Assembly: GCA_964356335.1 (NCBI GenBank)
Contig: CAYHHI010000004.1
Span: 36,699 to 100,698 of the forward strand
Source of the DNA: an uncultured bacterium
GTDB lineage: Bacteria; Arandabacterota; Arandabacteria; Arandabacterales; Arandabacteraceae
Length of the DNA: 64,000 bases
Reading direction: 5' to 3'
Shown here: in pieces, positions 20,858 through 51,165 of the stretch
Position numbering within the stretch: the first letter of the stretch is position 1
Layout: each line of letters begins with the position of its first letter
Program-made: the position numbers and the translations under genes
Notes under the pieces: generated by a model
Told to the model about the DNA's origin: nothing
Database searches by the model: none
Seen by the model: only the letters and a program-made list of their open reading frames with translations

Positions 20858-23083
20858 TTATTTGAGGACAACCAGCTTATTTGCCGCGCCTGCCTTGTCG
20901 CAGGAGAATTCAACAAAATAGATGCCCGGTGATGCAGCCTTGCCGTCCTCCCCTTTAAGATCCCAGGAGGTCTCGCCCGATGTAGCAACATCGACGATCC
21001 TCACAAGCCGTCCTCCAACGTCGAAGATTGAGATCTTGCCAGTCTGACGGGCAGGTGATGAGAAGGCAACCTTGCCACCGACATGCACAGGGTTTTCAAA
21101 TCTGAGGCCCACTTCAGGCTGCACGCTCCCCGGAACGCCGGCCCCAGTAGTGGTTACCGACTCCCTTCCACTCCAGTATCCCCACTGGCCATCATCGTCC
21201 CTGGCCTTGACTTCGTAATAGAATGTCCCGATGGGCCGCGTGAGACCATAGTGAGTCTCAGTGATGGTGTTGCTCAAAACTGCCGATGAGTCAAAAACCG
21301 CGACCGGGAAGATGTCATCGATGTAGATGCCTTCCCCGAGAGTCGCACCATCGGTCTTATAGCGGAAGCGTATGGAGACCGTGGAATCAGCATACGCCCC
21401 GAGCGGGAAGATTCCCCTTACCCAACCACCCGACGAGCCCGTGATCCCGTTGCCCAGATTGCTGCCATTGGGATTGTAATTGGTGGTGATATTGCCGGGA
21501 ATAGAGTAATAGTGGGCCCCGCCGTCAGATGAGACTTGGACATACGTATAATCCCAGTCAAGCTCAATATCGTACCAGCACCAGAAGTAGAGTGTATCCC
21601 CTGAGCCGGCATCGACGCCGATCCGTATCGTGAGTCTCGCGTCGCGGTTATTGGTCTTGCCACTATAGAGGCTCTGCGTCGCGCTGTGATACCGCGTCGT
21701 CTTCAGGGAGAAGCCGTCCCTTATCCAATTGACGTCTCCACCCTCCACGTCATCCGTGACTATGGACTCGCCCGTTCGCTCCATTAGAGCATAGGTGACA
21801 GGAGGATTCGAGGGATCAGCATTGGGATCCCATGATACCGTGAATTGGCCGTCGTCATCGTCCGCCAGAGGATCGAGAATGGGCGTCGCCGGCGGCAGAA
21901 TCCGTGCGATATCATCAGCATACTCGGCGAGGAGAAGGCTTGGCTCAAGATTCTGCTGGCACAGCGTGAGTATCTGGGACGTTGGCGGCAGGAATTGGCC
22001 GCCGACTTCTATGGTATAGGAGTACGCCTTGTTCTTCAGAGTCTGTTCGCCATAGAACCAGTCATCGCTATCCCCGTTTGTGACGTAAATTGTAGTGGCC
22101 GCGGGGCCCTGCGTGTAACCGTTGAAAGAAGACATGCTGTCCCCCAGGGCATTGAACAGATCGTTGTCGGCAGTGACTGCCGCGATGTAGCCCCAGGGAT
22201 AGAGAATCAGGTTGCCGTAACTGTGGAAGGAAAGAACCGTCGAGAAGTTCTGGGCGATTCCGAAATCCCTTATGGCTTGAAGCTCCGGCTCAGAGAAGGG
22301 GCCGGTACCCCTGTAGGTTTCGTCTGAGGGAGTCGGGCTTGAGCCCTCATTGTCATAGCCCCACATGTAGCCGTAGTTCCGGTTAAGATCGACACCATAA
22401 GATCCGCCGCCATTGTTGCGGCGGTTCTTTCTCCAGTTACTGTTTACGTTCTGCTGGTACTCGCGCCCGTCGGGATTCACCGTCGGTATGATCCAGATCT
22501 CGCGGTCGTTAACCAGATTGGTTACTCTCGGGTTCGTCCCATAGTTGTCAACGAAGTAATACATGAGGTAGAGAGGGATCTCGACGGTGATGATCTCGCG
22601 CGCGTGGTGGTTGCCCATGTAGAGGACGCGAGGCTCGTTCTCAGTCGTGTTCACATTATCCGATATCTTGATTGCCCAGATATTTCGACCTTCGATGCTT
22701 GTTCCGACCGACTGTACACGACAGATGTTCGGGTGGGCATCGGCGAGACTATCCATCTCAGCGTAGGCCTCTTCATAGCTGTGGTAGGCACTCCCAATGC
22801 CAAAGACACCCATCATTTGCATATGTTTGTCGATATCGGCAATCAGGACTTCGCTGTTAGGCGCAAGTTGGATGAGCTCCTGAAGGCGCTCCGCAGGCAC
22901 GACGATGTCCGCATAACGCCTTCCACCCCAGGAAGCCACGTCATCGAATTGGGAAACGACCTTCTGAAGATGCTCTAAGTTATCAAAGTAAACCCTTATT
23001 AAGACGTCAGTTGCAAAAGTCGAGGAAGCGGAGACAGATAGGGCCAAGAGCGTCAGGCCAACCAGTGCTGTAACCTTGCGCAT
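20858..23083 (-). CDS. secreted M14 zinc carboxypeptidase with C-terminal T9SS-type (Por_Secre_tail/FlgD-Ig-like) sorting domain
   Basis: It has a signal peptide. The M14 motifs are GNHHAREI (HxxE) and SFHSYGNLILYPWGY. The C-terminus is SPGIYFVEFSCDKAGAANKLVVLK. Confidence 0.8.
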   Translation of the reverse strand: MRKVTALVGLTLLALSVSASSTFATDVLIRVYFDNLEHLQKVVSQFDDVASWGGRRYADIVVPAERLQELIQLAPNSEVLIADIDKHMQMMGVFGIGSAYHSYEEAYAEMDSLADAHPNICRVQSVGTSIEGRNIWAIKISDNVNTTENEPRVLYMGNHHAREIITVEIPLYLMYYFVDNYGTNPRVTNLVNDREIWIIPTVNPDGREYQQNVNSNWRKNRRNNGGGSYGVDLNRNYGYMWGYDNEGSSPTPSDETYRGTGPFSEPELQAIRDFGIAQNFSTVLSFHSYGNLILYPWGYIAAVTADNDLFNALGDSMSSFNGYTQGPAATTIYVTNGDSDDWFYGEQTLKNKAYSYTIEVGGQFLPPTSQILTLCQQNLEPSLLLAEYADDIARILPPATPILDPLADDDDGQFTVSWDPNADPSNPPVTYALMERTGESIVTDDVEGGDVNWIRDGFSLKTTRYHSATQSLYSGKTNNRDARLTIRIGVDAGSGDTLYFWCWYDIELDWDYTYVQVSSDGGAHYYSIPGNITTNYNPNGSNLGNGITGSSGGWVRGIFPLGAYADSTVSIRFRYKTDGATLGEGIYIDDIFPVAVFDSSAVLSNTITETHYGLTRPIGTFYYEVKARDDDGQWGYWSGRESVTTTGAGVPGSVQPEVGLRFENPVHVGGKVAFSSPARQTGKISIFDVGGRLVRIVDVATSGETSWDLKGEDGKAASPGIYFVEFSCDKAGAANKLVVLK

Positions 23084-23267: not shown

Positions 23268-25892
23268 CTACTCTCCACGAAAAGACGATACCCCCTTTTG
23301 CCCTGTCGCCTTCTTGAATTTGAGGTCGTGGGTTTTCGAGTCGAGGTCGACCTCGACGGTGTCGCCTTCGGCGAAGTCACCTTCCAACAGCTTCAAGGCA
23401 AGTGGATTCTGGATCTTCTTCTCTATGGTGCGCCTCAGCGGCCTTGCGCCGTAACTGGGATCGAAGCCATCCTTCGCGACAAACTCCTTTGCCTTGTCGG
23501 TAAGGACGATATCGAGTTTCCTCTCTTTGAGCCGATCCTTAAGCCTGTCGATCTGAAGGTCGACAATCCTCTTGATCTCATCAAGCCCAAGGCTGTTGAA
23601 GATGATGGTCTCATCAATCCTATTGAGGAACTCAGGCCGGAAGTGGCCCTGGAGAGCTTCCGTGATGCGCTTCCTCATCTCTTCGTCGTCGCCCCTCAAG
23701 TCTCTTATCCACTGGCTGCCAATGTTGGACGTCATGATAATCACGCTATTCTTGAAATCGACCGTGCGGCCCTTGCCATCGGTGAGCCGGCCGTCATCGA
23801 GAATCTGCAAAAGCAGATTGAAGACATCCTGGTGTGCCTTCTCGATCTCATCAAAAAGGATCACTGAGTAGGGCTTCCGCCGGATCGCTTCAGTCAAATA
23901 GCCACCTTCCTCGTAGCCGACATAGCCAGGTGGAGCCCCGATCAGCCTTGCGACCGAGTGCCGCTCCATGAACTCCGACATGTCGATCCACACCATCGCC
24001 CGCTCATCATCGAAAAGGAACTGGGCGAGCGCACGCGCCAGCTCGGTTTTCCCCACACCCGTGGGGCCCAGGAAAATGAACGATCCCAGGGGCCTGTTGG
24101 GATCCTGGAGGCCCGCTCTCGCCCGCCTGACGGCGTCAGACACGGCCGCAATCGCCTGATCCTGGCCAACGACCCGCAGCCTCAAGCGTTCTTCCATTTT
24201 GATCAGCTTCTCAACCTCGCCCTCGAGCATCCGCGATATGGGAATGCCCGTCCACTTCGACACGATCTCGGCGATGTCGTCCTCGTCAACTTCCTCCTTG
24301 AGCATCTTGGTGTCTTTCTGAAGCTCCTGGAGGCGCTTACTTTGGCTTTCGACCTCCTTGCTGAGAGTGACTATGCGGCTGTATCGAATCTCGGCAGCCT
24401 TCTCGAGATTGCCGGTGCGCTCGGCGGTCTCTCCCTCCTGCTTGGCCCGATCGATGTCCGCTTTGATCTTCCTGATCTTCTCGATGATATCCTTCTCGCT
24501 CTGCCAGTGTGCCTTCATGCCGCTCGACTTCTCGGTAAGGTCGGCAATCTCCTTCTCCACCTTCGCAAGCCTTTCCTTCGAGGCCTTGTCTTTCTCCTTG
24601 GAGAGCGCCTGCTTCTCGATCGTCAGTTGCATGATCCGCCGCTCGACCTCGTCGATCTCGGTAGGAAGAGAATCTATCTCGATCCTCAGGCTCGATGCAG
24701 CCTCATCAATCAGGTCAATAGCCTTATCCGGCAGGAATCTGTCGGTTATGTAGCGATGGGACAACACAGCAGCCGCGACAAGCGCCGCGTCCTTTATGGC
24801 AACACCATGATGGACTTCGTAGCGCTCCTTGAGACCCCTCAAAATCGCAATCGTGTCCTCGACGCTCGGCTCGCCGACCAGGATCGGCTGAAACCGTCTC
24901 TCGAGTGCCGGATCCTTCTCAATCCTCTTCCTGTATTCATCAATCGTCGTCGCTCCGATGGCACGAAGTTCGCCCCTTGCCAGGGCAGGCTTGAGCATAT
25001 TCGAAGCGTCCACAGCACCCTCGGCACCACCCGCTCCCACCAGGGTATGAAGCTCATCGATGAAGAGGATCACCTTGCCCTCGGCCTCCTCTATCTCCTT
25101 CAGGACCGCCTTGAGACGCTCTTCGAATTCGCCTCTGAACTTCGAACCGGCAACCAGAGCGCCAATGTCGAGTCCCACGACGCGCTTATCCCTCAAGGTC
25201 TCGGGCACGTCACCCTTCATAACTCGCTGCGCAAGCCCCTCGACAATTGCGGTCTTGCCCACTCCGGGCTCGCCGATCAGGACAGGATTGTTCTTGGTCC
25301 TCCTCGAAAGCACCTGCACCACGCGCCTTATCTCGTCATCTCTGCCGATCACGGGGTCCAGTTTGCCCTTTCTCGCCAGATCAGTGAGGTCGCGCCCGAA
25401 TTTTTGGAGAGCCTGGTACTTGTCCTCCGGAGCCTGGTCGGTCACGCGCTGGCTTCCTCGTATCTCCACTAGGGCCTTATACACGCTATCCTTGGTGACG
25501 CCGTTACGCACCAGCACCTGGCTCGTCTTGGAATCTGTATCGATCACACCCACCAGGAGATGCTCGGTGCTCAAGAACTCATCCTTGAGGCGCTCCATTT
25601 CTCTGAAGGCGTTATCGATGGCCTTCTTCAAAGCCTGGGAGAGATATGCTCCTGCCTCGGCTGCCCCGTAAACCTTGGGTAGTCTCGCGATTTCATCGCC
25701 AATCTCGCGCCTTATCGCGTCAGGGTCCGCCCCCACCTTCTTTATAATGGGCAGCACGACCCCCTCCTCCTGCGCAAGAAGTGCTGAGAGGAGATGTTCG
25801 GGAGTTATCTCCTGGTTATTGTTCTCACTTGCGATTCGCTGCGCAGCCGTCATACCTTCCTGCGCCTTTATTGTGAATCTGTCCAGCCTCAT
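23268..25892 (-). CDS. clpB: ATP-dependent chaperone ClpB (Hsp104 family)
   Basis: It has two AAA+ modules ([16 protein letters not shown]) separated by a long coiled-coil M-domain. The N-terminus [11 protein letters not shown] is typical. The start is taken as the ATG at 25892, which is SD-spaced. Confidence 0.95.
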
Positions 25893-26046
25893 ACTCATCC
25901 CTCCTCGAAACCCATCAGTCAGACGTCCTGCCCCACTGTCTTAGAATATGGTCTCCCCGTGGTCGTCGCTGCAATTCAATGTCAATTCAGGATCCTGTCA
26001 CCATCGTCTGATCTTATTGTGATTTGGCATTGTGTGACACTTGTTC

Positions 26047-26742
26047 CTATCGTCTTGAGTACCAGGAGCGCGGGCGTGGTCTGAAAAGATAGAATATGGT
26101 GATCCCGCCCAGAAAACCTCCTATGTGCGCCCACCAGGCGACACCGCCGGTCTCACCAGAGGCCACTACTGATGCAGCCCCGCTCAGGAATTGAAGTATG
26201 AACCAGAAACCGAGTACCACCAGAGCGGGCAACTCAATGAACTGGATGAAGAAGAAGATGGGCAGCAGCACCAGGATGCGTGCCCCAGGATACGAGATAA
26301 TATAAGCTCCGAGAACGCCCGCAATTGCTCCGCTTGCGCCCAGTGCCGGCAAACTCGACGCAGGATTGAGGGCATAGTGAGCGGCGTTGCCGATAAGGCC
26401 GCACAACACATAGAAAACAAGGAAGCGAACGTGGCCCAGCCTATCCTCGACGTTATCGCCGAAGATCCAGAGATACCACATGTTGCCGATTAGATGGATC
26501 CATCCTGCATGCATGAACATGGAAGAGAAGAAGGGGAAAAAGACGCGCCGGGGTTCCAACTGGGCCCCCGAAAAATAGGCCGCAACATGGCCAGGAATGA
26601 GGGCGTACCTCGTGACAAAACCTGCAAGCGCCCTCTGCCCCATGGAAACTTCGAAAAGGAAGATGACGGTATTCACCACGATCAGCGAAACCGTCATCAC
26701 GGGGAAACTTCTCGATGGAACGTTATCTCTGATTGGAAGCAT
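26047..26742 (-). CDS. rhomboid-family intramembrane serine protease
   Basis: It has six TM helices. The catalytic GxSG is GASGAIAGVLGAY and the His is in AHIGGFLGG. Confidence 0.8.
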   Translation of the reverse strand: MLPIRDNVPSRSFPVMTVSLIVVNTVIFLFEVSMGQRALAGFVTRYALIPGHVAAYFSGAQLEPRRVFFPFFSSMFMHAGWIHLIGNMWYLWIFGDNVEDRLGHVRFLVFYVLCGLIGNAAHYALNPASSLPALGASGAIAGVLGAYIISYPGARILVLLPIFFFIQFIELPALVVLGFWFILQFLSGAASVVASGETGGVAWWAHIGGFLGGITIFYLFRPRPRSWYSRR

Positions 26743-26956: not shown

Positions 26957-29461
26957 CTATCTCAGCACTATCACCTTGGCCGAAGTCTTCCCCGCGATTG
27001 TGTCTATCCTGGCGAAGTAGATGCCGGGGGCTACCTTGGCGCCCTTGCTGTCGTCAGCCAGCCAGGCTATCTCATGCCTTCCGGCAGGAAGTGAGCCCTC
27101 GTACAGGGTTCTCACTACCTTGCCTTCAATGTCATAGATGCAGGCCTTGACCATGCTCTTTGAGCCAAGAGCGAAGGAGACCTTCGTCGCAGCGCCGAAG
27201 GGATTGGGATACGCGGAAACCGCAACCGGTACCACAGGCTTCCCAACCACCGAGGCCACGGTGTCAAGCTCTGCCAACTCGGCGAGTGTCGCAATACCCA
27301 TCCGCACGACGTTGGTGCAGAAGGGCATCGTCAGATTGCCCAGGGTGTCATTTACGGTGTGGTAGTAAGGATACGGCACATTCCTGTCTTCTATGGCAAG
27401 GATGGCGTCGTAGCCCGCTCCCCAGAACATGTAATGATCACTGCCACTTACGGTCGGGTCAATCAGCCTCTTGGTGAGAAGCCCAGGCACATAAGCGTTG
27501 GCGCAGTCTATCGTGAAATCGACCAACCACGTTGAGGCCTCATTCCCGATGACATCAATGTCCTCGGGAGCGACGTCGACGTAGCCAATCATGTCGAAGT
27601 TCAAGACACCGTTGATGACGTCACCCCGACCCTTGGCCTCGGCAGCATACTCGCCGCTGCCATAAAGCCCTTGCTCTTCACCTGACCAGCCGATGAACTT
27701 TATGGTCCGCTTGAAGGGCGTCAAAGCCATCACCCTCGCGGCTTCAATCGCGGCGGCAGTGCCGCTCGCATTGTCATCCGCGCCGGGGGCACGGTTGTTA
27801 AAATCAGGAGAGGTATCATCAGCATGGCCGCAGATTATGACCTGTTCGGTCGAGACCGTACCGGGCTTGGTCGCAACGATGTTCTTGAGGAACTTGAGAT
27901 TCAGAGCAGGCAGGTTGCCCCGCTGGTTCTCCCAGGTTGCGCCGCCGTCGGTGGTGTGCAGAATCGTGCCACCATAGCCGACCGCCCAGCCATCATCGTT
28001 ATTTACGAATCTCACCCGCCTCATGCCGAAAAGCGTTGAGGCGCTTTGAATCTCCCAGGTCGCGCCGCTGTCTGTGGTGTGAAGGATGGTTCCGCTCAAG
28101 CCGGCGACCCATCCCTCGAGACTGTCCACGAAGCAGACACCCTTCAGGTAAGGATCGGCGGCAGCCGGGATGGTCTGAGGAATCCAGTTCTGGCCCCCAT
28201 CAACCGTCTTCAGAACGACCCAGCCACCTCCAACGGCCCAGCCCACATTGTCGTTTATGAAATCAACATCAAGCAGGTTCTCGATGGTTCCGCTTGTCTG
28301 AGGCGACCACGAAGTGCCATCCCAGAAACGAAGCACCCCGTTCGCGCCGCAGGCCCACCCACGGTTATTGGATCTGAAATAGCAGCCATAGAGATCCTCG
28401 CCGGTTCCACTTGCGACGGTGGTCCAGTTCGTGCCGCCGTTTGTGGTCCTTTGGACTGCCCCTCCATACCCGACCGCCCAGCCGTTCTGGGAATCCAGGA
28501 AGAAGATCTCACGGAGCCAGGAAGTCGTCCCTGAGGTCTGCCCAACCCATGTAGTCCCGCCATTTGTGGTTTTGAAAATCGCACCGCCCTGCCCTGCCAC
28601 CCAGCCAGTGAGGGTATCAACGAAGCTTACCCCAAAGAAGGTCGCGCCGGCTGCACTGACCGCCTGCCTGGTCCAGGTTGCGCCCCCATCCCACGTCCTG
28701 AAGATCTTCTGCGTACTGCCGACCGCCCAGCCGTTGTCGGCATCGCAGAAATGAGTGGAATAGAAATCGAAGGAGCAAACCACGTAGTCGTGATAAGCCA
28801 CATCCAAACCGTAACTCTGAAATCTCTCATAGATATAGTTCGCGGCGTGTTCGAAACGCCAGTTATATGAATATCGCGTAAGAAGCGTATCCAGCTGCCC
28901 GTTTATGACCACAGGCTCGCGCCCGCTCATCTGCGAAATGTACTTGCTCACAGTATCACTCGAGATGCCGGCAACGATGCTCTGAATCCTGGGATTGGGA
29001 ACAACTGCCTGGGGCCCCATCTCTGGCATGGCTTTGGCCGGTTCCGGAAAGGCCCTGGGAGCGAGTCTCACCTTCGAGAAGGGAAGAAACTTGAGATCGT
29101 CAACTTCACTCCGTGCCATCTTGGTGATGTAGAGGCCCTCACCAACTTGATAGAGTACCCCGGAGTATAGCAACTCATCCCGGAAGCTCCTCGCCCTCAG
29201 AAGGAAGATCTCATCGCCTGGAAGGACAGGCGTGATTACAGAGAACTTGGCTCCCCCCTGCTCCAGTCTCGCTGCAGCCTGCTTGTCACCCTCGACCAGA
29301 TAGGAGCTGCCAAGGTCGGTAAGAAAATGGAAGCCAGCCGTGCGCATGGCCGCAACGGCAACCGGTTTCTCGACCTTTAAGACAAGTGATTCCTCATCTG
29401 CAAAGGCGAGTGCCGAAGCAAAGAACACAGCCATAAGACAAAAAAGCGCAAACTTGCGCAT
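26957..29461 (-). CDS. secreted M28-family zinc aminopeptidase with a BNR/Ycf48-like beta-propeller inserted into the peptidase domain and a C-terminal T9SS-type sorting domain
   Basis: It has a signal peptide. The M28 ligand motifs are GHADDT, DDNASG, SGEEQG, NFDMIG and SDHYMF. Seven DGG(A/T)TW-type propeller blades lie between the first M28 segment and NIVATKPG. The C-terminus is APGIYFARIDTIAGKTSAKVIVLR. Confidence 0.75.
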   Translation of the reverse strand: MRKFALFCLMAVFFASALAFADEESLVLKVEKPVAVAAMRTAGFHFLTDLGSSYLVEGDKQAAARLEQGGAKFSVITPVLPGDEIFLLRARSFRDELLYSGVLYQVGEGLYITKMARSEVDDLKFLPFSKVRLAPRAFPEPAKAMPEMGPQAVVPNPRIQSIVAGISSDTVSKYISQMSGREPVVINGQLDTLLTRYSYNWRFEHAANYIYERFQSYGLDVAYHDYVVCSFDFYSTHFCDADNGWAVGSTQKIFRTWDGGATWTRQAVSAAGATFFGVSFVDTLTGWVAGQGGAIFKTTNGGTTWVGQTSGTTSWLREIFFLDSQNGWAVGYGGAVQRTTNGGTNWTTVASGTGEDLYGCYFRSNNRGWACGANGVLRFWDGTSWSPQTSGTIENLLDVDFINDNVGWAVGGGWVVLKTVDGGQNWIPQTIPAAADPYLKGVCFVDSLEGWVAGLSGTILHTTDSGATWEIQSASTLFGMRRVRFVNNDDGWAVGYGGTILHTTDGGATWENQRGNLPALNLKFLKNIVATKPGTVSTEQVIICGHADDTSPDFNNRAPGADDNASGTAAAIEAARVMALTPFKRTIKFIGWSGEEQGLYGSGEYAAEAKGRGDVINGVLNFDMIGYVDVAPEDIDVIGNEASTWLVDFTIDCANAYVPGLLTKRLIDPTVSGSDHYMFWGAGYDAILAIEDRNVPYPYYHTVNDTLGNLTMPFCTNVVRMGIATLAELAELDTVASVVGKPVVPVAVSAYPNPFGAATKVSFALGSKSMVKACIYDIEGKVVRTLYEGSLPAGRHEIAWLADDSKGAKVAPGIYFARIDTIAGKTSAKVIVLR

Positions 29462-29711: not shown

Positions 29712-29939
29712 TCAGGCCCTACGCTTGCGATGCCCGCCGCCAGCCATCGCCTTAGCGATTCTTGTCCGGAGCTTTATCACGGCAGACTTAGTCAACTTGT
29801 CGTCTCGCCACTTGCGATAGATCTTGATGATCCTTCCGTGGGTATCAACGTACATGCGGCATTTCTCGCAATCCACCATGTGGCGCGTAATCTGCTCACA
29901 TATGGACTCACGTGCTTCACCCTCGAGGAAGTCCGTCAT
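29712..29939 (-). CDS. zinc-dependent anti-sigma factor (ZAS family)
   Basis: It has Cx5Hx3Cx2C (SICEQITRHMVDCEKC) and lies immediately downstream of the ECF sigma gene. The start could instead be the TTG at 29990, which overlaps the sigma stop by 8 nt. Confidence 0.55.
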   Translation of the reverse strand: MTDFLEGEARESICEQITRHMVDCEKCRMYVDTHGRIIKIYRKWRDDKLTKSAVIKLRTRIAKAMAGGGHRKRRA

Positions 29940-29982
29940 ATGAGGCAGTAGACCTTTACAGCGACCCTTGCATCGGCGCATG

Positions 29983-30591
29983 CTACACAAATCTCCCCAT
30001 CTGATTTTGATTCCTGATGTGCCTCAAAAGTTGCGCTCTTAATAAAACTCTTGTGCGATGGAGGCGGGATTTTACGGCCGGGACAGAGACCCTGAGTATC
30101 CGTGCTGTCTCGCCAGTTGAGAGGCCTTCGACGTGTCTCAGGACAAAAACTGCCCGGTAGGCCGGGGGAAGGTCTGCTATCGCATGGTCAAGGGTCTCGC
30201 GCGATTCTTTCTCCATGAGCCTGGTGAGGGGATCTGGACTGCCGTTTCGAAAATCTCGCTGGACCTCGCCCTCCTCGGTGCTCACGGGTATGTCAAGAGA
30301 TACTGATTCAACCCTCTTCTTTCTAAGCTTCATGAGAGCCAAGTTGACAGTGATGCGGTAAAGCCAGGTGGAGAATTTTGACTTCTCCTCGAACTGAGGA
30401 AGCGATCTATAGGCCTTAACGAAGGCTTCCTGGAGGACGTCTTCGGCGTCCTCGTCGGTCGCGGTCATCCGACGCGCGAGTCTGTAGATTTTGTTCTGAT
30501 AGCGCAGCACCAGCTCGCCAAATGCTCTCCGGTCGCCCTTCTTGGCAAGCCTGACGAGGTTTTGATCTTTTATGTCCGCCGCGACAGCCAT
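29983..30591 (-). CDS. ECF-type RNA polymerase sigma-70 family factor
   Basis: Its region 2 is FGELVLRYQNKIYRLARRMTATDEDAEDVLQEAFVKAYRSL. Its region 4 HTH is GLSTGETARILRVSVPAVKSRLHRTR. Confidence 0.85.
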   Translation of the reverse strand: MAVAADIKDQNLVRLAKKGDRRAFGELVLRYQNKIYRLARRMTATDEDAEDVLQEAFVKAYRSLPQFEEKSKFSTWLYRITVNLALMKLRKKRVESVSLDIPVSTEEGEVQRDFRNGSPDPLTRLMEKESRETLDHAIADLPPAYRAVFVLRHVEGLSTGETARILRVSVPAVKSRLHRTRVLLRAQLLRHIRNQNQMGRFV

Positions 30592-37244: not shown

Positions 37245-38951
37245 CTACTTAAGAATAAGCACTTTGGCCCTGCTGGTGCCGGGAACCTCAACGAAAACGA
37301 TGCCAGGCGCGATGCCGGGAAGGGCCGAATTGAGATTGATCTCGGTGAGCCCGGAAGGCCTCAGATCGAATTCACGAATAAGCCTTCCGGCAACATCGTA
37401 GATCCTCACAGGGCCTCGGGCTGGCGCGCCGGCATAACCTATGTAGAAACTCGCCCGGCAAGGATTGGGGTAGACCTCGAGTCTCGAGACTGGGATCCTT
37501 CCGGATGCAATGCCACTCGGCACATACCCTGAAGCGTCATACGCCTGGAGGATGCCCCAGCCATAAAGCGTGTCGGGATTTGATGACCGTGTGCCTGTAG
37601 CCATTATCGCTTCAGTCACATTGGCAGGCAGCCAGTTGGGGTGCTTCTCGAGAACGAGGGCAATTGCACCGGCAGTGAGCGGCGTGGCGAAGGAAGTGCC
37701 GCTCCCTCTCCTGTAACTAGTTGGGCCGGTGGTGTTAGCTATATAATCTGCCTGACCCATCGCCATGATGGTAGGCTTGATCCTTCCGTCGTAGGTTGGA
37801 CCCTGGGATGACCAAGAGGACCTCACGCCCGTCGAATCCACGGAACCGACCGTGACGACGCTGTCACCATCCGCCGGCGCCATGATGTATTTCCACTCAG
37901 AGGCGCCGGCATTACCGGCAGCGTTTACGACCACAATCCCATTCAGGACTGCTCTGTCGGCGGCGTTGGTGATGGGTGCGGTATCGCCGTCCATGTCCGC
38001 GTAGGTATACCAATCTGAGTAACACAGCGAACTGGATATTATCTGAGCTCCAAGGCTGTCCGCCCATTCGGCTGCGGCTATCCACCAATCCTCTTCAACG
38101 GGCTGCTCGTCTGCCATGTCTTCGGTTTTCGCAAGAATGTACTCGGCATCAAAGGCTGCACCCATCATCGTTCCCGGCGTATTCCCCGCGAGCAGCGAAA
38201 GACACATGGTGCCGTGATCATGTTGGCCGGACGGGTCTCCGGGCTGGTTGGCAGTGGTGTCGTCATTGTTTATGAAGTCATGCTCGGCTATCACATTGAG
38301 GTCCGTGAAGGTCTCGTGCTCCAGCCAGAAGCCGGTATCGAAGATCGCTACCTTGACACCCGTCCCCGTATAGCCCTCATTGTGGAGCTGAGGAACCTGG
38401 ATCAGGGTGAGCTGTCTCCACGCCTGGCCATACTGGTAAAGAGCTCCGATGCCCTTCTCCGAAGCGTCCCAGGTCACAGGCTCGGGAGATCCCGCTTTGC
38501 CGCTCACCCTCCGCAAAGATTTCACGAAGGGAAGGCCGGCGATATGTTCTATCTGGTCGCGCGTAGCAACAATGCTAGCGGCATTGAGCCACCTGGAGAA
38601 AGTTCTGAACTCCACACCTTCGGCCTTCAGGGCATCGATGTAAGGTTTGTAGAGCGGGAGATCGGATTCGTCAAAGGGCTGCGCGGGCCGTGCCCTCAGA
38701 CGCCTCTCCACGGCCCTGGGATCATAGGATGAGGCGATCTCGCTAAGCCGTGCCTGGACTTCATTCAGAGCATAATCACCCTTGTCCCTGAAGAAAACCC
38801 AGACCACAAGCTCATCCCCGCTCGGAGCAGTCTTGAGCCATTCACTAACCGAGGGTGAGACCCCTGTGAGGCCGAAAGAAGGCGTTCCGAGAGTAAAGGC
38901 AGTGAAGACAAGAGCCATAACTGAAAGTGGAATCAATTCACGTGGCTTCAT
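37245..38951 (-). CDS. secreted subtilisin-like serine protease (S8) with C-terminal T9SS-type sorting domain
   Basis: Its catalytic triad contexts are FDTGF (Asp), HGTMCLSLLAGN (His) and GTSFATPLTAGAIAL (Ser). The signal peptide is MKPRELIPLSVMALVFTAFTLG, and the ATG at 38951 has AAAGGAG upstream. The C-terminus is APGIVFVEVPGTSRAKVLILK. Confidence 0.85.
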   Translation of the reverse strand: MKPRELIPLSVMALVFTAFTLGTPSFGLTGVSPSVSEWLKTAPSGDELVVWVFFRDKGDYALNEVQARLSEIASSYDPRAVERRLRARPAQPFDESDLPLYKPYIDALKAEGVEFRTFSRWLNAASIVATRDQIEHIAGLPFVKSLRRVSGKAGSPEPVTWDASEKGIGALYQYGQAWRQLTLIQVPQLHNEGYTGTGVKVAIFDTGFWLEHETFTDLNVIAEHDFINNDDTTANQPGDPSGQHDHGTMCLSLLAGNTPGTMMGAAFDAEYILAKTEDMADEQPVEEDWWIAAAEWADSLGAQIISSSLCYSDWYTYADMDGDTAPITNAADRAVLNGIVVVNAAGNAGASEWKYIMAPADGDSVVTVGSVDSTGVRSSWSSQGPTYDGRIKPTIMAMGQADYIANTTGPTSYRRGSGTSFATPLTAGAIALVLEKHPNWLPANVTEAIMATGTRSSNPDTLYGWGILQAYDASGYVPSGIASGRIPVSRLEVYPNPCRASFYIGYAGAPARGPVRIYDVAGRLIREFDLRPSGLTEINLNSALPGIAPGIVFVEVPGTSRAKVLILK

Positions 38952-38970
38952 GTGCGCTCCTTTCTCTAGG

Positions 38971-38976
38971 ATTATA
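38971..38976 (-). promoter_or_regulatory. -10 element (TATAAT) for the S8 protease gene
   Basis: On the minus strand it reads gtagTATAATcctagagAAAGGAGcgcacATG. The direct repeats lie upstream of it. Confidence 0.4.
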
Positions 38977-39003
38977 CTACGATTTCGGCCCGGGCTCAAG
39001 GCT

Positions 39004-42053: not shown

Positions 42054-43538
42054 TTATCTTACTACAACAAACCTTCCCGTCCTGCTGCTTCCCCCGGCGT
42101 CGACCCTGTAAATGTATATCCCGCTTACCACCTGCTTACCGTCACTGTCCCTGAGGTTCCAATCAGCTGAGCCCTTCTGCGTTTCGTTGTCGATATTGAA
42201 GCCGGGCCTGACCGTATCTATGTAACCTCCGGATGCATCATATATCCTTATGGTTGCCTTTTCGGGTACATTCACGAACTGCAGCTTGGCCTCCCCCTGC
42301 TCCCAGCCAGCCCTGAAACGATAAGGATTGGGAACCACAAAGACATCGTCGACTGTTCGACCCTTCGGAGAGGCGGTCGGATACACCTCAGTCCAGTTTA
42401 TCGGACTCATGATGAGTTCATAACCGCTAGACCAATCGTAGGTCACGACAGCGTAATCATAAGGGAAGCCATTGAGCAACACATAGGCACTTGGGTCAGG
42501 CGTGACGCCACGCCCGCTGGCCCTTATGCCCTTGTCAATGAAGTACCTCTCACCGCCAGGATCCTGCTTGCCGAATGAATCTGCAAAGAATCCGGGATCC
42601 TCACAGCGCCTCTTATCCACAGCCACCTTATACTGGCCCACGGGATCGCTGGACGTGGGGGGCCTATCTTCAACAGACCGGCGCAGAACCAGATACCCTT
42701 CAAAGGTGGAGGCCTTGATCTTGAATGCATCGGCCGGAGGATTGTCGCCTGGGCCCGCCTTCCCGAAGGGTATCCTGACATCGACCGAAAAACTCCGACC
42801 TACCTGGAACTGCCCCGCCGGGAAGGAGACCCTCAGCCCCTTGCTCACCCCGACGCTCTGGCCCGACCGCTCGACCACGATCGAACTATCTTCACCAAGA
42901 CTGGCTGCCGACCAGCTGAGAGTGATCGCGGCATTTCCTTCGGGGCCGAGCTCGCCCCCAGAGACACACGTGAACTCAAGGACCACTACTGTGTCCGCGA
43001 GTCTCCCACCTCTGTATATGCCGTCAAAAGTGGGAATGGGACAATCCTGCCAACCTTCGGGATGAAACCTGAATAGGCTGTAAGAAGGGATTGATATCTT
43101 TATGCCGTCTGAAAGGTCATAGTCATGATCGGTCGAATCCACCGTGATTGTCTTTTCGCTTTGGGACTTAGTATTCCAGTCACTCACGTACAACCAGGAA
43201 AGAAGCACCCGATCGGGAGTGGAACTCACGGTGATATTGTAGTCATGATCACAGGCTCCAACATAAAAGCTTTCATCGCTCACGGTTATAGTCGCTTTGC
43301 CTCTCCACGGGGTCTCACGTGTACCCAGCGACGGCTGGTAAACAAAAACCAGGCTTTCAGGCTGAAGATCCTTCCACTGAATCTTCACTATCCTGCCGTC
43401 GCTACGGGTGGTATCGCCTTCAGTGATATTCACAATGTGTGGCGCTTTGAGAGTGATGCCTGCCCCACAGACGCTAACGCAGAGAAGTAAGCACCCAAAC
43501 CAAAGTGCATAGACAAAACGCCTCCCGCCCTTCTGCAT
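42054..43538 (-). CDS. secreted hypothetical protein with C-terminal T9SS-type sorting domain
   Basis: Its signal peptide is MQKGGRRFVYALWFGCLLLCVSVCGAG, from the ATG at 43538 with GGAGG upstream. Its C-terminus is VVPNPYRF...IRIYDASGGYID...SGIYIYRVDAGGSSRTGRFVVVR. Confidence 0.6.
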   Translation of the reverse strand: MQKGGRRFVYALWFGCLLLCVSVCGAGITLKAPHIVNITEGDTTRSDGRIVKIQWKDLQPESLVFVYQPSLGTRETPWRGKATITVSDESFYVGACDHDYNITVSSTPDRVLLSWLYVSDWNTKSQSEKTITVDSTDHDYDLSDGIKISIPSYSLFRFHPEGWQDCPIPTFDGIYRGGRLADTVVVLEFTCVSGGELGPEGNAAITLSWSAASLGEDSSIVVERSGQSVGVSKGLRVSFPAGQFQVGRSFSVDVRIPFGKAGPGDNPPADAFKIKASTFEGYLVLRRSVEDRPPTSSDPVGQYKVAVDKRRCEDPGFFADSFGKQDPGGERYFIDKGIRASGRGVTPDPSAYVLLNGFPYDYAVVTYDWSSGYELIMSPINWTEVYPTASPKGRTVDDVFVVPNPYRFRAGWEQGEAKLQFVNVPEKATIRIYDASGGYIDTVRPGFNIDNETQKGSADWNLRDSDGKQVVSGIYIYRVDAGGSSRTGRFVVVR

Positions 43539-43578
43539 ACATACCTCCAGCCATAGAAACGCGATGTATTTCCTGAGA

Positions 43579-45837
43579 CTAGAAAGCCCTGGGCTTCCCT
43601 TCATCGAATAATTCCAAGAGATTCCGTATCAGAGTCTTGACCTCGTCGTGGTTGAAGAACCACGGAGGGATTCCGATATAGGCTGCATACCCCCGCCCCG
43701 TCTTGCTATCGCCAGGAACATACACTCCAATCCACTTACCCTGCAACCTCATGCCAGAGGGGGTCATGATCTCCCTCCCGCACTCTGGATCTCCTATGCG
43801 CTGCCCCTTATCATTGACCGGTACAACCGAGTAAATCGGACGGACATCGATACTGTCATCGTATCTAAGCTCTGTTATGTAAAAAGCATTGTCAACTCTG
43901 CCCGGCCAGCCGGCGACACCAGGAATCCGATCTGTTGTGACGGGATCCCAGTACTGCGTTGTGTCATCCAGAGGCTTCGCTGTATACTTAGTTGTACACG
44001 GGTACATGGTCTTGAAGCTAACCCTGGGATTGCCGATCAACATCTTCGCTATTCCGAACGTCTCCCAGTTGAAGTTGTAGATCAAGGTTGAGTCAACGGG
44101 GTTCACCCTCGGGGTGAAATCCAAGCTGGTCTGGGAACCTCTGGTTCCGCGAGGAGGCGTCTTGTCGGGCCAGAACATGCAGGAGTAAATCGGATCCAGA
44201 CCTATCACGATTATATTCCCGCCAACCTTGACGTAGGAATTGAGGTAATTGCCCCTGTTGAAGCAAACCTCGGTGAGATGAATATCTGGGCTCTCTGTAT
44301 CTTGATCAGCAAGCCAGATCACGGTTGAGGCATCCGCCACCCGCCTGATCGGCACCTCGTTCTTGTAATCGCTGCCCGTATCAAACTCCTGCCAATTGTA
44401 ACCCTTGAGGATATCGGCCCACAGGCTGTCACTGGCTCGTTCATAGTAGAGGTAGGGGTTTCCCAGCCACTTGGCATGATCGTCGTCAACAAGATAAATG
44501 AACTTCTCCTTGCCTCGAGGGCCTTTGAGCACCTCCAAGCGAAACTCACAATGGCTTGTATCTCTATTCAGGTCTCTGAGCTCGACAACAAAGTTGTGAG
44601 TACCAAGACTGGGAATAAACGGTTTGCCGTCCGAGGGATATCTCACGAGCCACTCGACACCTGTTGTCCTTTCCCTGAGAGGGTCGACACTGGTCCAGTA
44701 GTTCCATGTTGACGTTGCGGGATCTTCAGAATCGTCGAAGTAATAACGACATGCAGCCACCAGTTTCCCCTGGCTCCGATCCTCAGACCCCCAGAACTTG
44801 AACGATACGGGCGTACCCTCAAACAACCCGGCAACATTGCTCAAATACCCTTGCCTGTCGTCGCTCGACCTCACCCCCAATGCGCCTGCATCAATGTTGG
44901 TGGTGACACCCGCACCCTGAGTGATGACGAGCAACCTGACCCAATTATTGTCGCTGTTATAAGTTCCATAAAGAGACTTGGGCAGCACAGCACCACCCTC
45001 GTCCTTACAGGTGACAAACGCCATCACCTTCTCTCCCTTAACTGCATAGGTAGAGAGATTGAGGTCCTTCACGTACGTGCAGTCTGCCGGAACCCACTCA
45101 CTCCAATAACTGACTGCAGGCGCCGCATAGGGCTTGTGCCTAGGGTCGGTGTCGACCACGTCGAGACTGTCTAACCGCGACGCAGTCCCGGGAGGTGTCG
45201 GCCATTTGCCGCCGGGCAATTCCTTCTCAGGAATGAGAATATACTTGAAAAGCATCTTCGAAACATCGCCATCCGAGTCCTCTCCACGCCACTCGATATA
45301 AACGTGAGGAGGAGAGAGACAGGGGACAGTCGGTATCTTCACTGGAATCGTTATCTTTGCCTTAGGAAGCACATTGGACGCCTGAAAGAAAACACTGGCT
45401 CCTGCAGAATCCACTGCCCCATCATTGTCAAGAGCCCTGACGATTATGCCCCAGTAGGAGAGGCCAAATCTGACAGTACCCACAGAAGAACAGCACGAAT
45501 CGGCCGTAACCACAAAAGTGCTTTCGGTTCTTGCAGTCTCAGCCCACTCGAGCTTATCGCGATCAAGATTATCAAGCGCTTCCCTGCTCAGGCCCTTGAC
45601 AGTCGCCACTTCATACCTTGCAATGGTCCCGTCCTCATCCGTACCGTACCAGTATGCTTGAACCTTGAAATAGGTCCTTGCTTCCTCCTTCGGCCCGAAA
45701 GAGATGAAGGTGTGCGGGGGGATATTGGTTACTCTTGTTCCGCCAGCCTTTTCGCCGCAGCCGCAGAACAAGAGTGCGAGACAGCATAATGCAATCCAGA
45801 CGATGCCAGCCGAGCCCGTGTACTTCCTGGTACTCAT
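43579..45837 (-). CDS. large lipoprotein, hypothetical (mosaic; shares its N-terminal repeat domain with the next gene and a central domain with the 1105-aa protein)
   Basis: It has a signal plus Cys-rich lipobox-like LLFCGCG. It has repeated PxxxFxWxGxDxDGxVxxYxY units. The segment FIYLVDDDHAKW...DASTVIWLADQD...GGNIIVIGLD parallels LLVDGHGRNLYDW...DYDAVVWFTGP...SGCVVLCGD in 47623..50940. Its ATG overlaps the upstream stop (ATGA). Confidence 0.6.
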   Translation of the reverse strand: MSTRKYTGSAGIVWIALCCLALLFCGCGEKAGGTRVTNIPPHTFISFGPKEEARTYFKVQAYWYGTDEDGTIARYEVATVKGLSREALDNLDRDKLEWAETARTESTFVVTADSCCSSVGTVRFGLSYWGIIVRALDNDGAVDSAGASVFFQASNVLPKAKITIPVKIPTVPCLSPPHVYIEWRGEDSDGDVSKMLFKYILIPEKELPGGKWPTPPGTASRLDSLDVVDTDPRHKPYAAPAVSYWSEWVPADCTYVKDLNLSTYAVKGEKVMAFVTCKDEGGAVLPKSLYGTYNSDNNWVRLLVITQGAGVTTNIDAGALGVRSSDDRQGYLSNVAGLFEGTPVSFKFWGSEDRSQGKLVAACRYYFDDSEDPATSTWNYWTSVDPLRERTTGVEWLVRYPSDGKPFIPSLGTHNFVVELRDLNRDTSHCEFRLEVLKGPRGKEKFIYLVDDDHAKWLGNPYLYYERASDSLWADILKGYNWQEFDTGSDYKNEVPIRRVADASTVIWLADQDTESPDIHLTEVCFNRGNYLNSYVKVGGNIIVIGLDPIYSCMFWPDKTPPRGTRGSQTSLDFTPRVNPVDSTLIYNFNWETFGIAKMLIGNPRVSFKTMYPCTTKYTAKPLDDTTQYWDPVTTDRIPGVAGWPGRVDNAFYITELRYDDSIDVRPIYSVVPVNDKGQRIGDPECGREIMTPSGMRLQGKWIGVYVPGDSKTGRGYAAYIGIPPWFFNHDEVKTLIRNLLELFDEGKPRAF

Positions 45838-47405: not shown

Positions 47406-47558
47406 AAGCACACTCCTCAATCCTGCGTGATTAAGTTCCTTGCGTCTAAGGAATTTGTGTCTATGCTACAGCATAGCTGGCCCCACGATAAGACACAGCC
47501 GAGAAACTATAACAACGCATTCCTGCCTTGTCAACACCAAAACTGGTCAAGCCTGGGC

Positions 47559-47597
47559 AATAAAGAACCGGGGCTTCCACTGGTATGAAAGCCCCGG
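47559..47597 (-). terminator. intrinsic terminator downstream of the 1105-aa surface protein gene
   Basis: The minus strand reads GGGGCTTTCATACCAGTGGAAGCCCCGG with a 9-bp stem, followed by TTCTTTATT. It lies about 30 nt after the stop at 47623. Confidence 0.45.
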
Positions 47598-47622
47598 CCT
47601 CAATGCCTTGTAGGGTCTACTT

Positions 47623-50940: not shown

Positions 50941-51165
50941 GGTCCAAACCCTCCGATGCGAAACTCGTTGCTGGCCAGTCTCCTGACTGACCATAGTACC
51001 CAAAGGGAAATCACTTGTTGTCGGACAGGTTCTTTCCCCACGCGGCAAACGGAAAATCGGAGGTACTTAAATCACTACAGCGTGTCTCCGTCTCACCCCC
51101 TTCCTTCAGCGAAGATCGCTGCAACCTTCAATCCACAATTGACACAATCACCCTACATCCGCCTA

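What the first reader, a model, noticed from the sequence alone, without database searches (positions are those of the whole stretch)
26957..29461. M28 aminopeptidase with a seven-bladed BNR/Ycf48-like propeller inserted where PA domains normally sit
The first M28 segment (...ANYIYERFQSYGLDVAYHDY) is separated from the rest of the catalytic domain (NIVATKPG...GHADDT...) by ~330 aa of DGGxTW repeats. The insertion site corresponds to the loop that hosts protease-associated (PA) domains in other M28/M8 enzymes. I do not recognise a propeller in that position as a described architecture.
Basis: partly seen in the sequence, partly recalled or inferred. Interest (0 to 1): 0.5.

Follow-up and report, generated by a model that had tools for sequence, protein, structure and literature searches.

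The report
Propeller-inserted secreted M28 zinc aminopeptidase
This gene encodes a secreted zinc aminopeptidase whose catalytic domain is split by a seven-bladed Ycf48-like beta-propeller, inserted exactly where related enzymes carry a "PA" lid domain; the layout is real, conserved across several uncultured bacterial phyla, and apparently undescribed, but it is a variation on a well-known enzyme family.

Summary
ORF 26957-29461 (minus strand, 834 aa) reads: signal peptide; N-terminal double ferredoxin-like domain; M28 piece 1 (aa ~152-228); seven-bladed Ycf48/BNR-type propeller (aa ~230-519); M28 piece 2 (aa ~521-736); T9SS-type C-terminal sorting domain.

Four lines of evidence show one M28 fold with an excursion:
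- Uninserted M28 relatives align across the gap.
- An in-silico propeller deletion aligns end-to-end with Vibrio aminopeptidase.
- A propeller-deleted family profile hits that enzyme at E=2e-47.

PA-bearing M28 enzymes (PaAP, BSAP, 2EK8, GCPII) resume homology at the same junction. All di-zinc ligands and the catalytic Glu are invariant.

At least 85 homologues share the layout, in Eisenbacteria, Zixibacteria, Ignavibacteria, Coatesbacteria, Latescibacterota and Krumholzibacteriota. The insert is 283-305 aa, with identical junctions and blade phase.

Databases give only generic automated names. I found no solved structure or paper describing it.

The most likely role of the propeller is a substrate gate or selector over the active site, by analogy with PA domains and prolyl oligopeptidase. 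That is inferred, not shown.

Verdict: new variant of a known kind, moderate interest.

The parts
26957..29461 (-). Whole gene: 834-aa secreted M28 peptidase with inserted propeller (stop codon included)
   Evidence: ORF list; full-length orthologues of 825-850 aa at 45-98% identity
29501..29529 (-). Near-consensus sigma-70-type promoter (TTGACT-17-TATAAT, 11 of 12 matches) about 40 bp upstream of the ATG, followed by a purine-rich RBS
   Evidence: Consensus scan and sequence. Pattern match only, not shown to be functional
29399..29461 (-). Signal peptide, aa 1-21 (MRKFALFCLMAVFFASALAFA): Sec type, no lipobox
   Evidence: Read from the sequence; modelled as a low-confidence N-terminal helix. 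Inference, as no signal-peptide predictor was available
29057..29395 (-). N-terminal domain, aa 23-135: two tandem beta-alpha-beta-beta-alpha-beta (ferredoxin-like) units. Possibly a prodomain; function unknown
28778..29008 (-). M28 catalytic domain, piece 1 (aa 152-228): helices 157-164, 168-178 and 203-216 plus strand beta1 220-228; invariant R196
27905..28774 (-). Inserted seven-bladed Ycf48/BNR-type beta-propeller (aa 230-519), followed by a conserved N-[LIVM]-P linker
   Evidence: Pfam PSII_BNR 3e-34; PDB Ycf48 1.4e-22; Foldseek Ycf48 5ojr_D E=6.9e-19, target TM 0.75-0.77; seven blade motifs; pLDDT mostly above 90; junction alignment
27254..27901 (-). M28 catalytic domain, piece 2 (aa 521-736), carrying the metal ligands H546, D563, E596, D623, H701 and the catalytic E595
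   Evidence: Pfam Peptidase_M28 1e-29; Vibrio aminopeptidase residues 76-284; these residues are invariant in 46 orthologues and in the 23-sequence set that includes uninserted relatives
26960..27223 (-). C-terminal Ig-like beta-sandwich sorting domain (aa 747-834), T9SS type A / FlgD_ig type
   Evidence: NCBIfam TIGR04183 31.6 bits (cut-off 23); Pfam FlgD_ig 32.7 bits (cut-off 27). The same domain ends four other proteins in the window

Best explanation
The gene encodes an exported, catalytically competent di-zinc M28 aminopeptidase from an Eisenbacteria-lineage bacterium. After the signal peptide comes a double ferredoxin-like N-domain, which may be a prodomain. The M28 fold is discontinuous: aa ~152-228 give the first helices and strand beta1, and aa ~521-736 give the rest, including all metal ligands. 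A complete seven-bladed Ycf48-like propeller is spliced into the beta1-beta2 hairpin, the same hotspot that holds the PA (apical) domain in PaAP, BSAP, 2EK8 and GCPII. A T9SS-type C-terminal domain directs export to the cell surface or the medium. The architecture is shown. The following is inferred: being tethered by two short, rigid connectors at the site from which PA domains cover the active site, the propeller acts as a lid or substrate selector. It would limit access to unfolded peptides and/or bind and present peptide substrates. This is the design used by prolyl oligopeptidase, which has a discontinuous catalytic domain plus a seven-bladed propeller. The insertion most likely happened once, into an Ndom-M28-CTD ancestor, using a propeller module that is common in secreted proteins of these phyla.
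For: Architecture:
- (sequence).
- (AF2, pLDDT 86, pTM 0.78).
- (Foldseek: Ycf48 is the top hit; PA-bearing M28s align across both pieces over 609-661 columns).

Catalytic competence: H546, D563, E595, E596, D623 and H701 are invariant and map onto H97, D117, E151, E152, D179 and H256 of the Vibrio enzyme (alignment).

Same site as PA domains: (resumption at profile 71-84 against junction 79|80) and PMC10449631 (PaAP domain limits).

PA domains gate access:
- PaAP's PA domain swings ~40 degrees to open the active site (PMC10449631).
- The BSAP PA domain is a 'lid'; deleting it leaves pNA activity unchanged but improves polypeptide hydrolysis (PMC3954873).

POP topology: hydrolase domain 1-71 + 428-710, propeller 72-427 (PMC5446394).

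This propeller family can bind peptides: the top Foldseek hits are Ycf48-D1 peptide complexes.

Selection on the insert:
- Length is held to 283-305 aa in 85 proteins.
- Connectors are short and high-confidence, with pLDDT 88-93 around aa 221-240 and 511-530.

Single origin: same entry and exit points, same blade phase and a shared N-[LIVM]-P linker across phyla. Uninserted relatives have the same Ndom and CTD.

Export: TIGR04183 scores above its cut-off, and four other CTD-bearing proteins lie in the window, two of them peptidases (M14, S8).
Against: - I could not obtain model coordinates or PAE, so the orientation of the propeller relative to the zinc site is not established. The gating role rests on analogy.
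- Conservation inside the propeller is almost purely the structural repeat motif. There is no conserved pocket or Arg patch; only Q388, S390 and D446 are blade-specific. That does not point to a defined ligand site.
- Ycf48-like propellers are promiscuous add-on modules in many secreted proteins of these phyla. A 1,300-aa subgroup adds more of them after the M28 domain, which fits a generic binding role as well as it fits gating.
- NJ trees of the catalytic domain and of the propellers interleave inserted and uninserted forms, so a single origin is not proven.
- The N-domain's role as a prodomain is weakly supported, and it also occurs without any peptidase (P0242).
- No biochemical data exist.
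Confidence: 0.6

Rival explanations
1. The architecture is as described, but the propeller is a targeting or adhesion module rather than a gate. It would bind a polymer (glycan, cell-wall or detrital material) or a surface partner protein, and so hold the aminopeptidase on its substrate or on the cell, as CBM-like modules do in other secreted hydrolases.
For: - Ycf48/BNR-type propellers about 40-47% identical to this one occur in many other secreted proteins of the same phyla, alongside dockerin, cohesin, FN3, PKD and phosphatase domains and T9SS CTDs.
- The 1,300-aa M28 variants add further propellers in tandem after the catalytic domain.
- The propeller has no conserved pocket.
- BNR/Asp-box propellers occur in glycan-active enzymes and in Sortilin (established knowledge; weak Pfam Sortilin-Vps10 and BNR hits).
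Against: - A pure targeting module could be appended at either end, as in the tandem cases. Here it is kept strictly inside the beta1-beta2 hairpin, with a tightly constrained length and short rigid linkers, in more than 85 proteins. That suggests its position next to the active site matters.
- The two roles are not mutually exclusive.
Confidence: 0.3
2. Two independent, complete domains in tandem (a propeller followed by an intact M28 domain). On this reading the segment at aa 152-228 belongs to something else, and there is no insertion.
For: Pfam maps Peptidase_M28 at aa 527-713 starting at profile position 1, which looks like a complete domain after the propeller.
Against: - PF04389 omits the first ~75 residues of the fold: Vibrio aminopeptidase aligns only from its residue 76.
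- Uninserted relatives and the Vibrio enzyme align to aa 152-228 once the propeller is removed.
- R196 is invariant in both inserted and uninserted relatives.
Confidence: 0.02
3. A non-catalytic M28-fold protein, a receptor or scaffold like the transferrin receptor or nicastrin, in which the propeller is the functional part.
For: M28 folds with an insertion at this same site have lost catalysis in the transferrin receptor and nicastrin (established knowledge; weak Pfam Nicastrin hit, E=0.043).
Against: All five zinc ligands and the catalytic Glu are invariant across 46 orthologues down to 33% identity, and also in the uninserted relatives. The motifs HxD, APGADDN, GEEQGL, DM and H..D are intact.
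Confidence: 0.03
4. An assembly or gene-calling artefact that fuses separate genes.
For: None beyond the unusual layout. The exact protein is not on record in the collection.
Against: There is one uninterrupted ORF. A 98%-identical protein and dozens of 834-aa orthologues come from independent JGI, ENA, NCBI and Logan assemblies, including complete MAG chromosomes such as CP070702.1.
Confidence: 0.01

Closest known systems
PA-domain-bearing M28 aminopeptidases (P. aeruginosa PaAP 8AC7/8AC9, B. subtilis BSAP/YwaD 6HC6, Aneurinibacillus AM-1 2EK8) and GCPII with its apical domain
   Same: Secreted di-zinc M28 catalytic domain that is discontinuous at the same beta1-beta2 hairpin. An N-piece of about 70 residues is followed by an inserted accessory domain and then the rest of the fold (PMC10449631).
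   Different: The insert is a ~293-aa seven-bladed Ycf48-like propeller, not a ~125-155-aa PA alpha/beta domain; there is no Pfam PA hit. The connectors are short, not the two extended strands of PaAP. The protein has an extra N-terminal double ferredoxin-like domain and a T9SS-type CTD. PaAP's autoinhibitory C-terminal propeptide is not evident here.
Vibrio/Aeromonas proteolytica aminopeptidase (AAP, 1AMP/1RTQ) and LapA-type leucyl aminopeptidases
   Different: AAP has a contiguous catalytic domain with no insert. The NCBIfam LapA equivalog model scores far below its cut-off here (62.8 against 600), so this protein is not an orthologue.
Ycf48/HCF136 photosystem II assembly factor
   Same: The inserted domain is a seven-bladed propeller of the same Pfam family (PSII_BNR, 119 bits against cut-off 27). 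Ycf48 structures are the best Foldseek matches (E=7e-19, target TM ~0.76), and Ycf48 is known to bind a peptide.
   Different: It is not a stand-alone lipoprotein and is not from an oxygenic phototroph. The NCBIfam Ycf48 equivalog model scores 128.8 against cut-off 326. No Arg is conserved anywhere in the propeller, so Ycf48's Arg patch is not retained.
Prolyl oligopeptidase family S9 (POP, acylaminoacyl peptidase)
   Same: Same topological design. A short N-terminal segment belongs to the catalytic domain, a seven-bladed propeller is inserted after it, and the rest of the catalytic domain follows (POP: 1-71 / 72-427 / 428-710; PMC5446394, PMC3574126). In POP the propeller restricts access to oligopeptides.
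   Different: Unrelated catalytic fold and chemistry (Ser-Asp-His alpha/beta-hydrolase against a di-zinc M28). The propeller family is also unrelated. The similarity is an analogy, convergent at most, and not homology.

Membership tests
Peptidase family M28 (clan MH co-catalytic zinc peptidases) | Sequence match to the family model above its curated threshold | tested here: met
   Pfam PF04389: 104.1 bits against cut-off 21.3, E=1e-29. The propeller-deleted family profile hits AAP at E=1.9e-47.
Peptidase family M28 (clan MH co-catalytic zinc peptidases) | Five zinc ligands (His, bridging Asp, Glu, Asp, His) plus the catalytic Glu | tested here: met
   H546, D563, E596, D623, H701 and E595 align with AAP H97, D117, E152, D179, H256 and E151. 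They are invariant in 46 orthologues and in the 23-sequence set that includes uninserted relatives.
Peptidase family M28 (clan MH co-catalytic zinc peptidases) | Complete alpha/beta aminopeptidase fold | tested here: met
Peptidase family M28 (clan MH co-catalytic zinc peptidases) | Zinc-dependent exopeptidase activity | not testable with these tools
   Needs an enzyme assay.
PA-domain-containing M28 peptidases (PaAP/BSAP/GCPII type) | Accessory domain inserted in the beta1-beta2 hairpin of the M28 fold | tested here: met
   Homology to 2ek8, 6hc6, 8ac9, 3iib and GCPII resumes at profile positions 71-84, and the junction is 79|80. Foldseek aligns 2ek8 and PaAP across both pieces. PaAP domain limits are given in PMC10449631.
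PA-domain-containing M28 peptidases (PaAP/BSAP/GCPII type) | The inserted domain has the PA (protease-associated) fold | tested here: not met
   No PA hit in Pfam at E<=1. The insert is a seven-bladed propeller.
Ycf48/HCF136 photosystem II assembly factors | PSII_BNR seven-bladed propeller domain | tested here: met
   Pfam PF14870 119.1 bits against cut-off 27. Foldseek hits to Ycf48 structures, E=7e-19, target TM 0.73-0.77.
Ycf48/HCF136 photosystem II assembly factors | Equivalog-level similarity to true Ycf48 | tested here: not met
   NCBIfam NF010237 128.8 bits against cut-off 326.
Ycf48/HCF136 photosystem II assembly factors | Stand-alone protein of oxygenic phototrophs with a conserved Arg patch | tested here: not met
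   The domain is embedded in a peptidase of Eisenbacteria, Zixibacteria, Ignavibacteria and related lineages. No Arg reaches 85% conservation anywhere in aa 225-525. The exact Arg-patch positions were not mapped.
Prolyl oligopeptidase family S9 | Discontinuous catalytic domain with an inserted seven-bladed propeller | tested here: met
   The topology is the same (against PMC5446394).
Prolyl oligopeptidase family S9 | Ser-Asp-His alpha/beta-hydrolase catalytic domain | tested here: not met
   The catalytic domain is M28. There are no S9 hits in Pfam or PDB.
T9SS type A cargo proteins | C-terminal sorting domain above the family threshold | tested here: met
   TIGR04183 31.6 bits against cut-off 23. 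However, Pfam Por_Secre_tail scores 22.3, below its cut-off of 27, while FlgD_ig scores 32.7 against 27.
T9SS type A cargo proteins | T9SS machinery (PorU/PorV/SprA etc.) encoded in the same genome | not tested
   I did not search for it. No T9SS component was noticed among the window genes I annotated.
LapA/AAP-type leucyl aminopeptidase equivalog | Score above the NCBIfam equivalog cut-off | tested here: not met
   NF045908 62.8 bits (68.4 when spliced) against cut-off 600.

The most novel reading that the evidence does not exclude
A metallo-aminopeptidase has independently arrived at the prolyl-oligopeptidase design. A seven-bladed propeller, recruited from a Ycf48-like peptide-binding module, is spliced into the catalytic domain at the M28 'PA hotspot'. 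There it works as a gate that admits only unfolded peptide termini, or that captures peptides and feeds them to the di-zinc site. If so, the M28 beta1-beta2 hairpin is a general docking point for lid domains of unrelated folds, and Ycf48-type propellers would have a documented function outside photosynthesis.
Probability: 0.4. Interest if true: 0.55.

Novelty: new variant of a known kind. Interest (0 to 1): 0.4.

Why it matters
- It shows that the M28 insertion hotspot, known for PA/apical domains (PaAP, BSAP, GCPII, transferrin receptor), can host a completely different and much larger fold. It also gives a second, metallo-enzyme example of the "propeller spliced into a peptidase" design, so far typified by the S9 family.
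- It assigns a concrete context to the many Ycf48-like propellers of non-photosynthetic bacteria.
- It flags a conserved surface or secreted exopeptidase in poorly known, uncultured FCB-group phyla (Eisenbacteria, Zixibacteria, Coatesbacteria and others) that are thought to live on proteinaceous organic matter.
- It exposes an annotation pitfall. Pfam's M28 model starts after the insertion point, so domain maps make split M28 enzymes look like simple tandem fusions.
- The practical impact is modest until the propeller's role is tested.

Tried and rejected
1. AFDB Foldseek search for full-length precedents: the library was not available.
2. Model coordinates and PAE, to measure the distance from the propeller to the active site: not exposed by the tools, so the orientation is unknown.
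3. NJ trees of the catalytic piece and of the propellers, to test for a single origin: inserted and uninserted forms interleave, there are no support values, and propeller repeats add noise. I treated these as inconclusive and relied on junction homology instead.
4. Gene neighbourhood as a clue to function: the ECF sigma/anti-sigma, rhomboid and ClpB neighbours are kept only in close Eisenbacteria relatives (L002, L009) and not in other phyla. Rejected as evidence for function.
6. Looking for a conserved ligand pocket in the propeller: only structural repeat residues are conserved.
7. Literature searches for M28 with Ycf48, M28 with a beta-propeller insertion, and Eisenbacteria peptidases found nothing relevant.
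8. Exact-sequence look-up of the window protein: not on record.
9. PF25852, listed for some orthologues: it did not appear when P0010 and P0065 were rescanned. Not pursued.
Full report
**Observation.** The window has a single uninterrupted ORF at 26957-29461 on the minus strand, 834 aa.
- Pfam finds PSII_BNR/Ycf48 (E=3e-34, four stretches across aa ~239-511), Peptidase_M28 (E=1e-29, aa 527-713) and a C-terminal FlgD_ig/Por_Secre_tail domain.
- NCBIfam adds the T9SS type A sorting domain TIGR04183 above its cut-off (31.6 against 23 bits).
- Seven 'GW[AV]G' blade motifs sit at aa 244, 286, 327, 368, 407, 450 and 491, each followed by an Asp-box-like T.DGG..W turn. The one at ~380 is degenerate.
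The insert is ~293 aa, not ~330, and PA domains belong to M28 and S8 peptidases, not 'M8'.

**Is the M28 domain really split?** A plain domain map looks like a refutation, because Pfam's M28 model matches from its position 1 at aa 527, after the propeller. That model simply lacks the first ~75 residues of the fold: the 291-residue Vibrio/Aeromonas aminopeptidase (AAP) aligns to the query only from its residue 76. Four tests show the missing part is aa ~152-228.
1. Ordinary single-domain M28 peptidases of ~340 aa (for example P0152 and P0168, 35-37% identical) align to aa ~155-228, skip the whole propeller, and resume at 'KNIVATKPG'. R196 is invariant.
2. Joining aa 150-228 to 520-740 in silico gives a sequence that aligns to AAP residues 10-284 in one stretch.
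3. A profile of propeller-deleted family members plus uninserted relatives hits AAP at E=1.9e-47 over profile 19-290 = chain 7-286.

**Same site as PA domains.** With the spliced profile, PA-bearing M28 enzymes resume homology right at the splice junction (profile 79|80): 2ek8 at 81, BSAP 6hc6 at 74, PaAP 8ac9 at 79, 3iib at 84, GCPII at 71. Foldseek aligns 2ek8 and PaAP over 609-661 columns, across both pieces. The PaAP paper gives M28 = residues 44-116 + 274-510 and PA = 117-273 (PMC10449631), which matches.

**Catalytic competence.** H546, D563, E595, E596, D623 and H701 align with AAP H97, D117, E151, E152, D179 and H256. They are invariant in 46 orthologues down to 33% identity and in the set that includes uninserted relatives. 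A transferrin-receptor-like inactive scaffold is therefore unlikely.

**The other parts.**
- The N-terminus is a Sec-type signal peptide (read from the sequence).
- This N-domain also precedes uninserted M28 relatives. It also occurs alone with a sorting domain (P0242) and as tandem repeats in a 2,028-aa protein. A prodomain role is possible but not shown.
- The C-terminal beta-sandwich is a T9SS-type sorting domain. Four other proteins in the window end with it, including an M14 carboxypeptidase and an S8 subtilase.
- The gene has its own near-consensus sigma-70-type promoter.

**Distribution and origin.** Among 240 fetched homologues:
- 68 are Ndom-M28N-propeller-M28C-CTD;
- 17 lack the N-domain;
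- 4 (~1,300 aa) keep the inserted propeller and add more after the catalytic domain;
- the insert is 283-305 aa (median 294) in 85 proteins.

Of the 80 best-matching loci in a collection of species-representative genomes, ~20 carry the layout. They come from Eisenbacteria, Zixibacteria, Ignavibacteria, Coatesbacteria, Latescibacterota and Krumholzibacteriota. The closest uninserted relatives (Aminicenantes, WOR-3, Acidobacteriota) have M28N directly abutting M28C. Quick NJ trees interleave inserted and uninserted forms and are inconclusive. The junctions, however, are homologous across all groups: the same entry point 2-4 residues after beta1, the same blade phase, the same exit after the blade-7 Asp-box, and a shared N-[LIVM]-P linker. 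That favours one ancestral insertion. Synteny is kept only among close Eisenbacteria relatives, which also places the window in that lineage.

**How it most likely works.**
- Shown: a discontinuous, intact di-zinc M28 domain with a Ycf48-type propeller at the PA hotspot, in an exported protein.
- Inferred: the propeller acts as a lid or substrate selector.

Support comes from what PA domains do at this site. PaAP's PA domain swings ~40 degrees to open the active site and may present peptides (PMC10449631). BSAP's PA domain is a 'lid', and removing it leaves pNA activity unchanged but improves polypeptide hydrolysis (PMC3954873). Further support comes from the short, confident connectors and the tight length constraint, and from the prolyl oligopeptidase family, which has the same topology (hydrolase 1-71 + 428-710, propeller 72-427; PMC5446394). 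Ycf48, the nearest structural relative (Foldseek E=7e-19, target TM ~0.76), has been crystallised with a bound peptide.

Three things count against this reading. I could not see coordinates or PAE. The propeller shows only structural-motif conservation, with no conserved Arg or pocket. And such propellers are promiscuous modules in secreted proteins of these phyla, which fits a targeting or adhesion role about as well.

**Membership.**
- It is an M28 peptidase: model score, ligands and fold are all met.
- It is not a PA-domain M28, because the insert has a different fold.
- It is not a true Ycf48: the equivalog model scores 128.8 against 326, the context is wrong, and there is no conserved Arg.
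- It is not an S9 peptidase, which is an analogy only.
- It is not a LapA equivalog (62.8 against 600).

**Novelty.** Orthologues sit in NCBI and UniProt under generic automated names such as 'M28 family peptidase', 'M20/M25/M40 family metallo-hydrolase' and 'YCF48-related protein'. I found no curated family for the whole architecture in the libraries I scanned, no solved structure and no paper. It is best called a new variant of a known kind: real, conserved and undescribed, but a domain-architecture variation on a well-understood enzyme family. Interest is moderate at 0.4.

Noticed in passing
window 20858-23083 (-): A 741-aa secreted M14 zinc carboxypeptidase (Pfam E=1e-79) with an InhA-like MAM domain and the same FlgD_ig-type C-terminal sorting domain as the target. 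Together they would trim peptides from both ends.
   Followed up: partly
window 37245-38999 (-): A 584-aa S8 subtilase that also ends in the family's C-terminal sorting domain (module HMM E=6e-8). It is a third exported peptidase within 20 kb.
   Followed up: partly
window 42054-51048 (-): Four consecutive minus-strand ORFs (516, 752, 528 and 1,141 aa) with no Pfam domain, except that the first and last carry the same T9SS-type C-terminal domain. This is a block of uncharacterised secreted proteins.
   Followed up: partly
P0242, P0249 (relatives of window aa 23-150, nt 29012-29395): The target's N-terminal double ferredoxin-like domain is an autonomous module. P0242 (268 aa) is just this domain plus a T9SS sorting domain. 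P0249 (2,028 aa) has about nine tandem copies of the ~60-aa unit plus SBBP propeller repeats. No curated family covers it.
   Followed up: partly
P0074, P0076, P0079, P0082 (~1,300 aa homologues): A subgroup keeps the propeller inserted in the M28 domain and adds two or three further Ycf48-like propellers between the catalytic domain and the sorting domain.
   Followed up: partly
window 29712-30591 (-): An ECF sigma factor (202 aa) overlaps by 8 nt a 92-aa Cys-rich ORF with no Pfam hit, probably a zinc-binding anti-sigma factor, directly upstream of the target. The pair is also found near the orthologue in L009 but not in other phyla.
   Followed up: partly
window 26047-26742 (-) and 23268-25898 (-): A rhomboid intramembrane protease and ClpB lie directly downstream. 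The rhomboid has its own promoter-like site (TTGACA-17-TACCAT at 26799-26771). The order is conserved in the Eisenbacteria locus L002 only.
   Followed up: yes
Pfam PF04389 against window aa 527-713: Pfam's Peptidase_M28 model begins at strand beta2, after the PA/propeller insertion point. Domain maps therefore hide the N-terminal ~75 residues of the fold and make split M28 enzymes look like tandem fusions. This is a general annotation caveat.
   Followed up: yes
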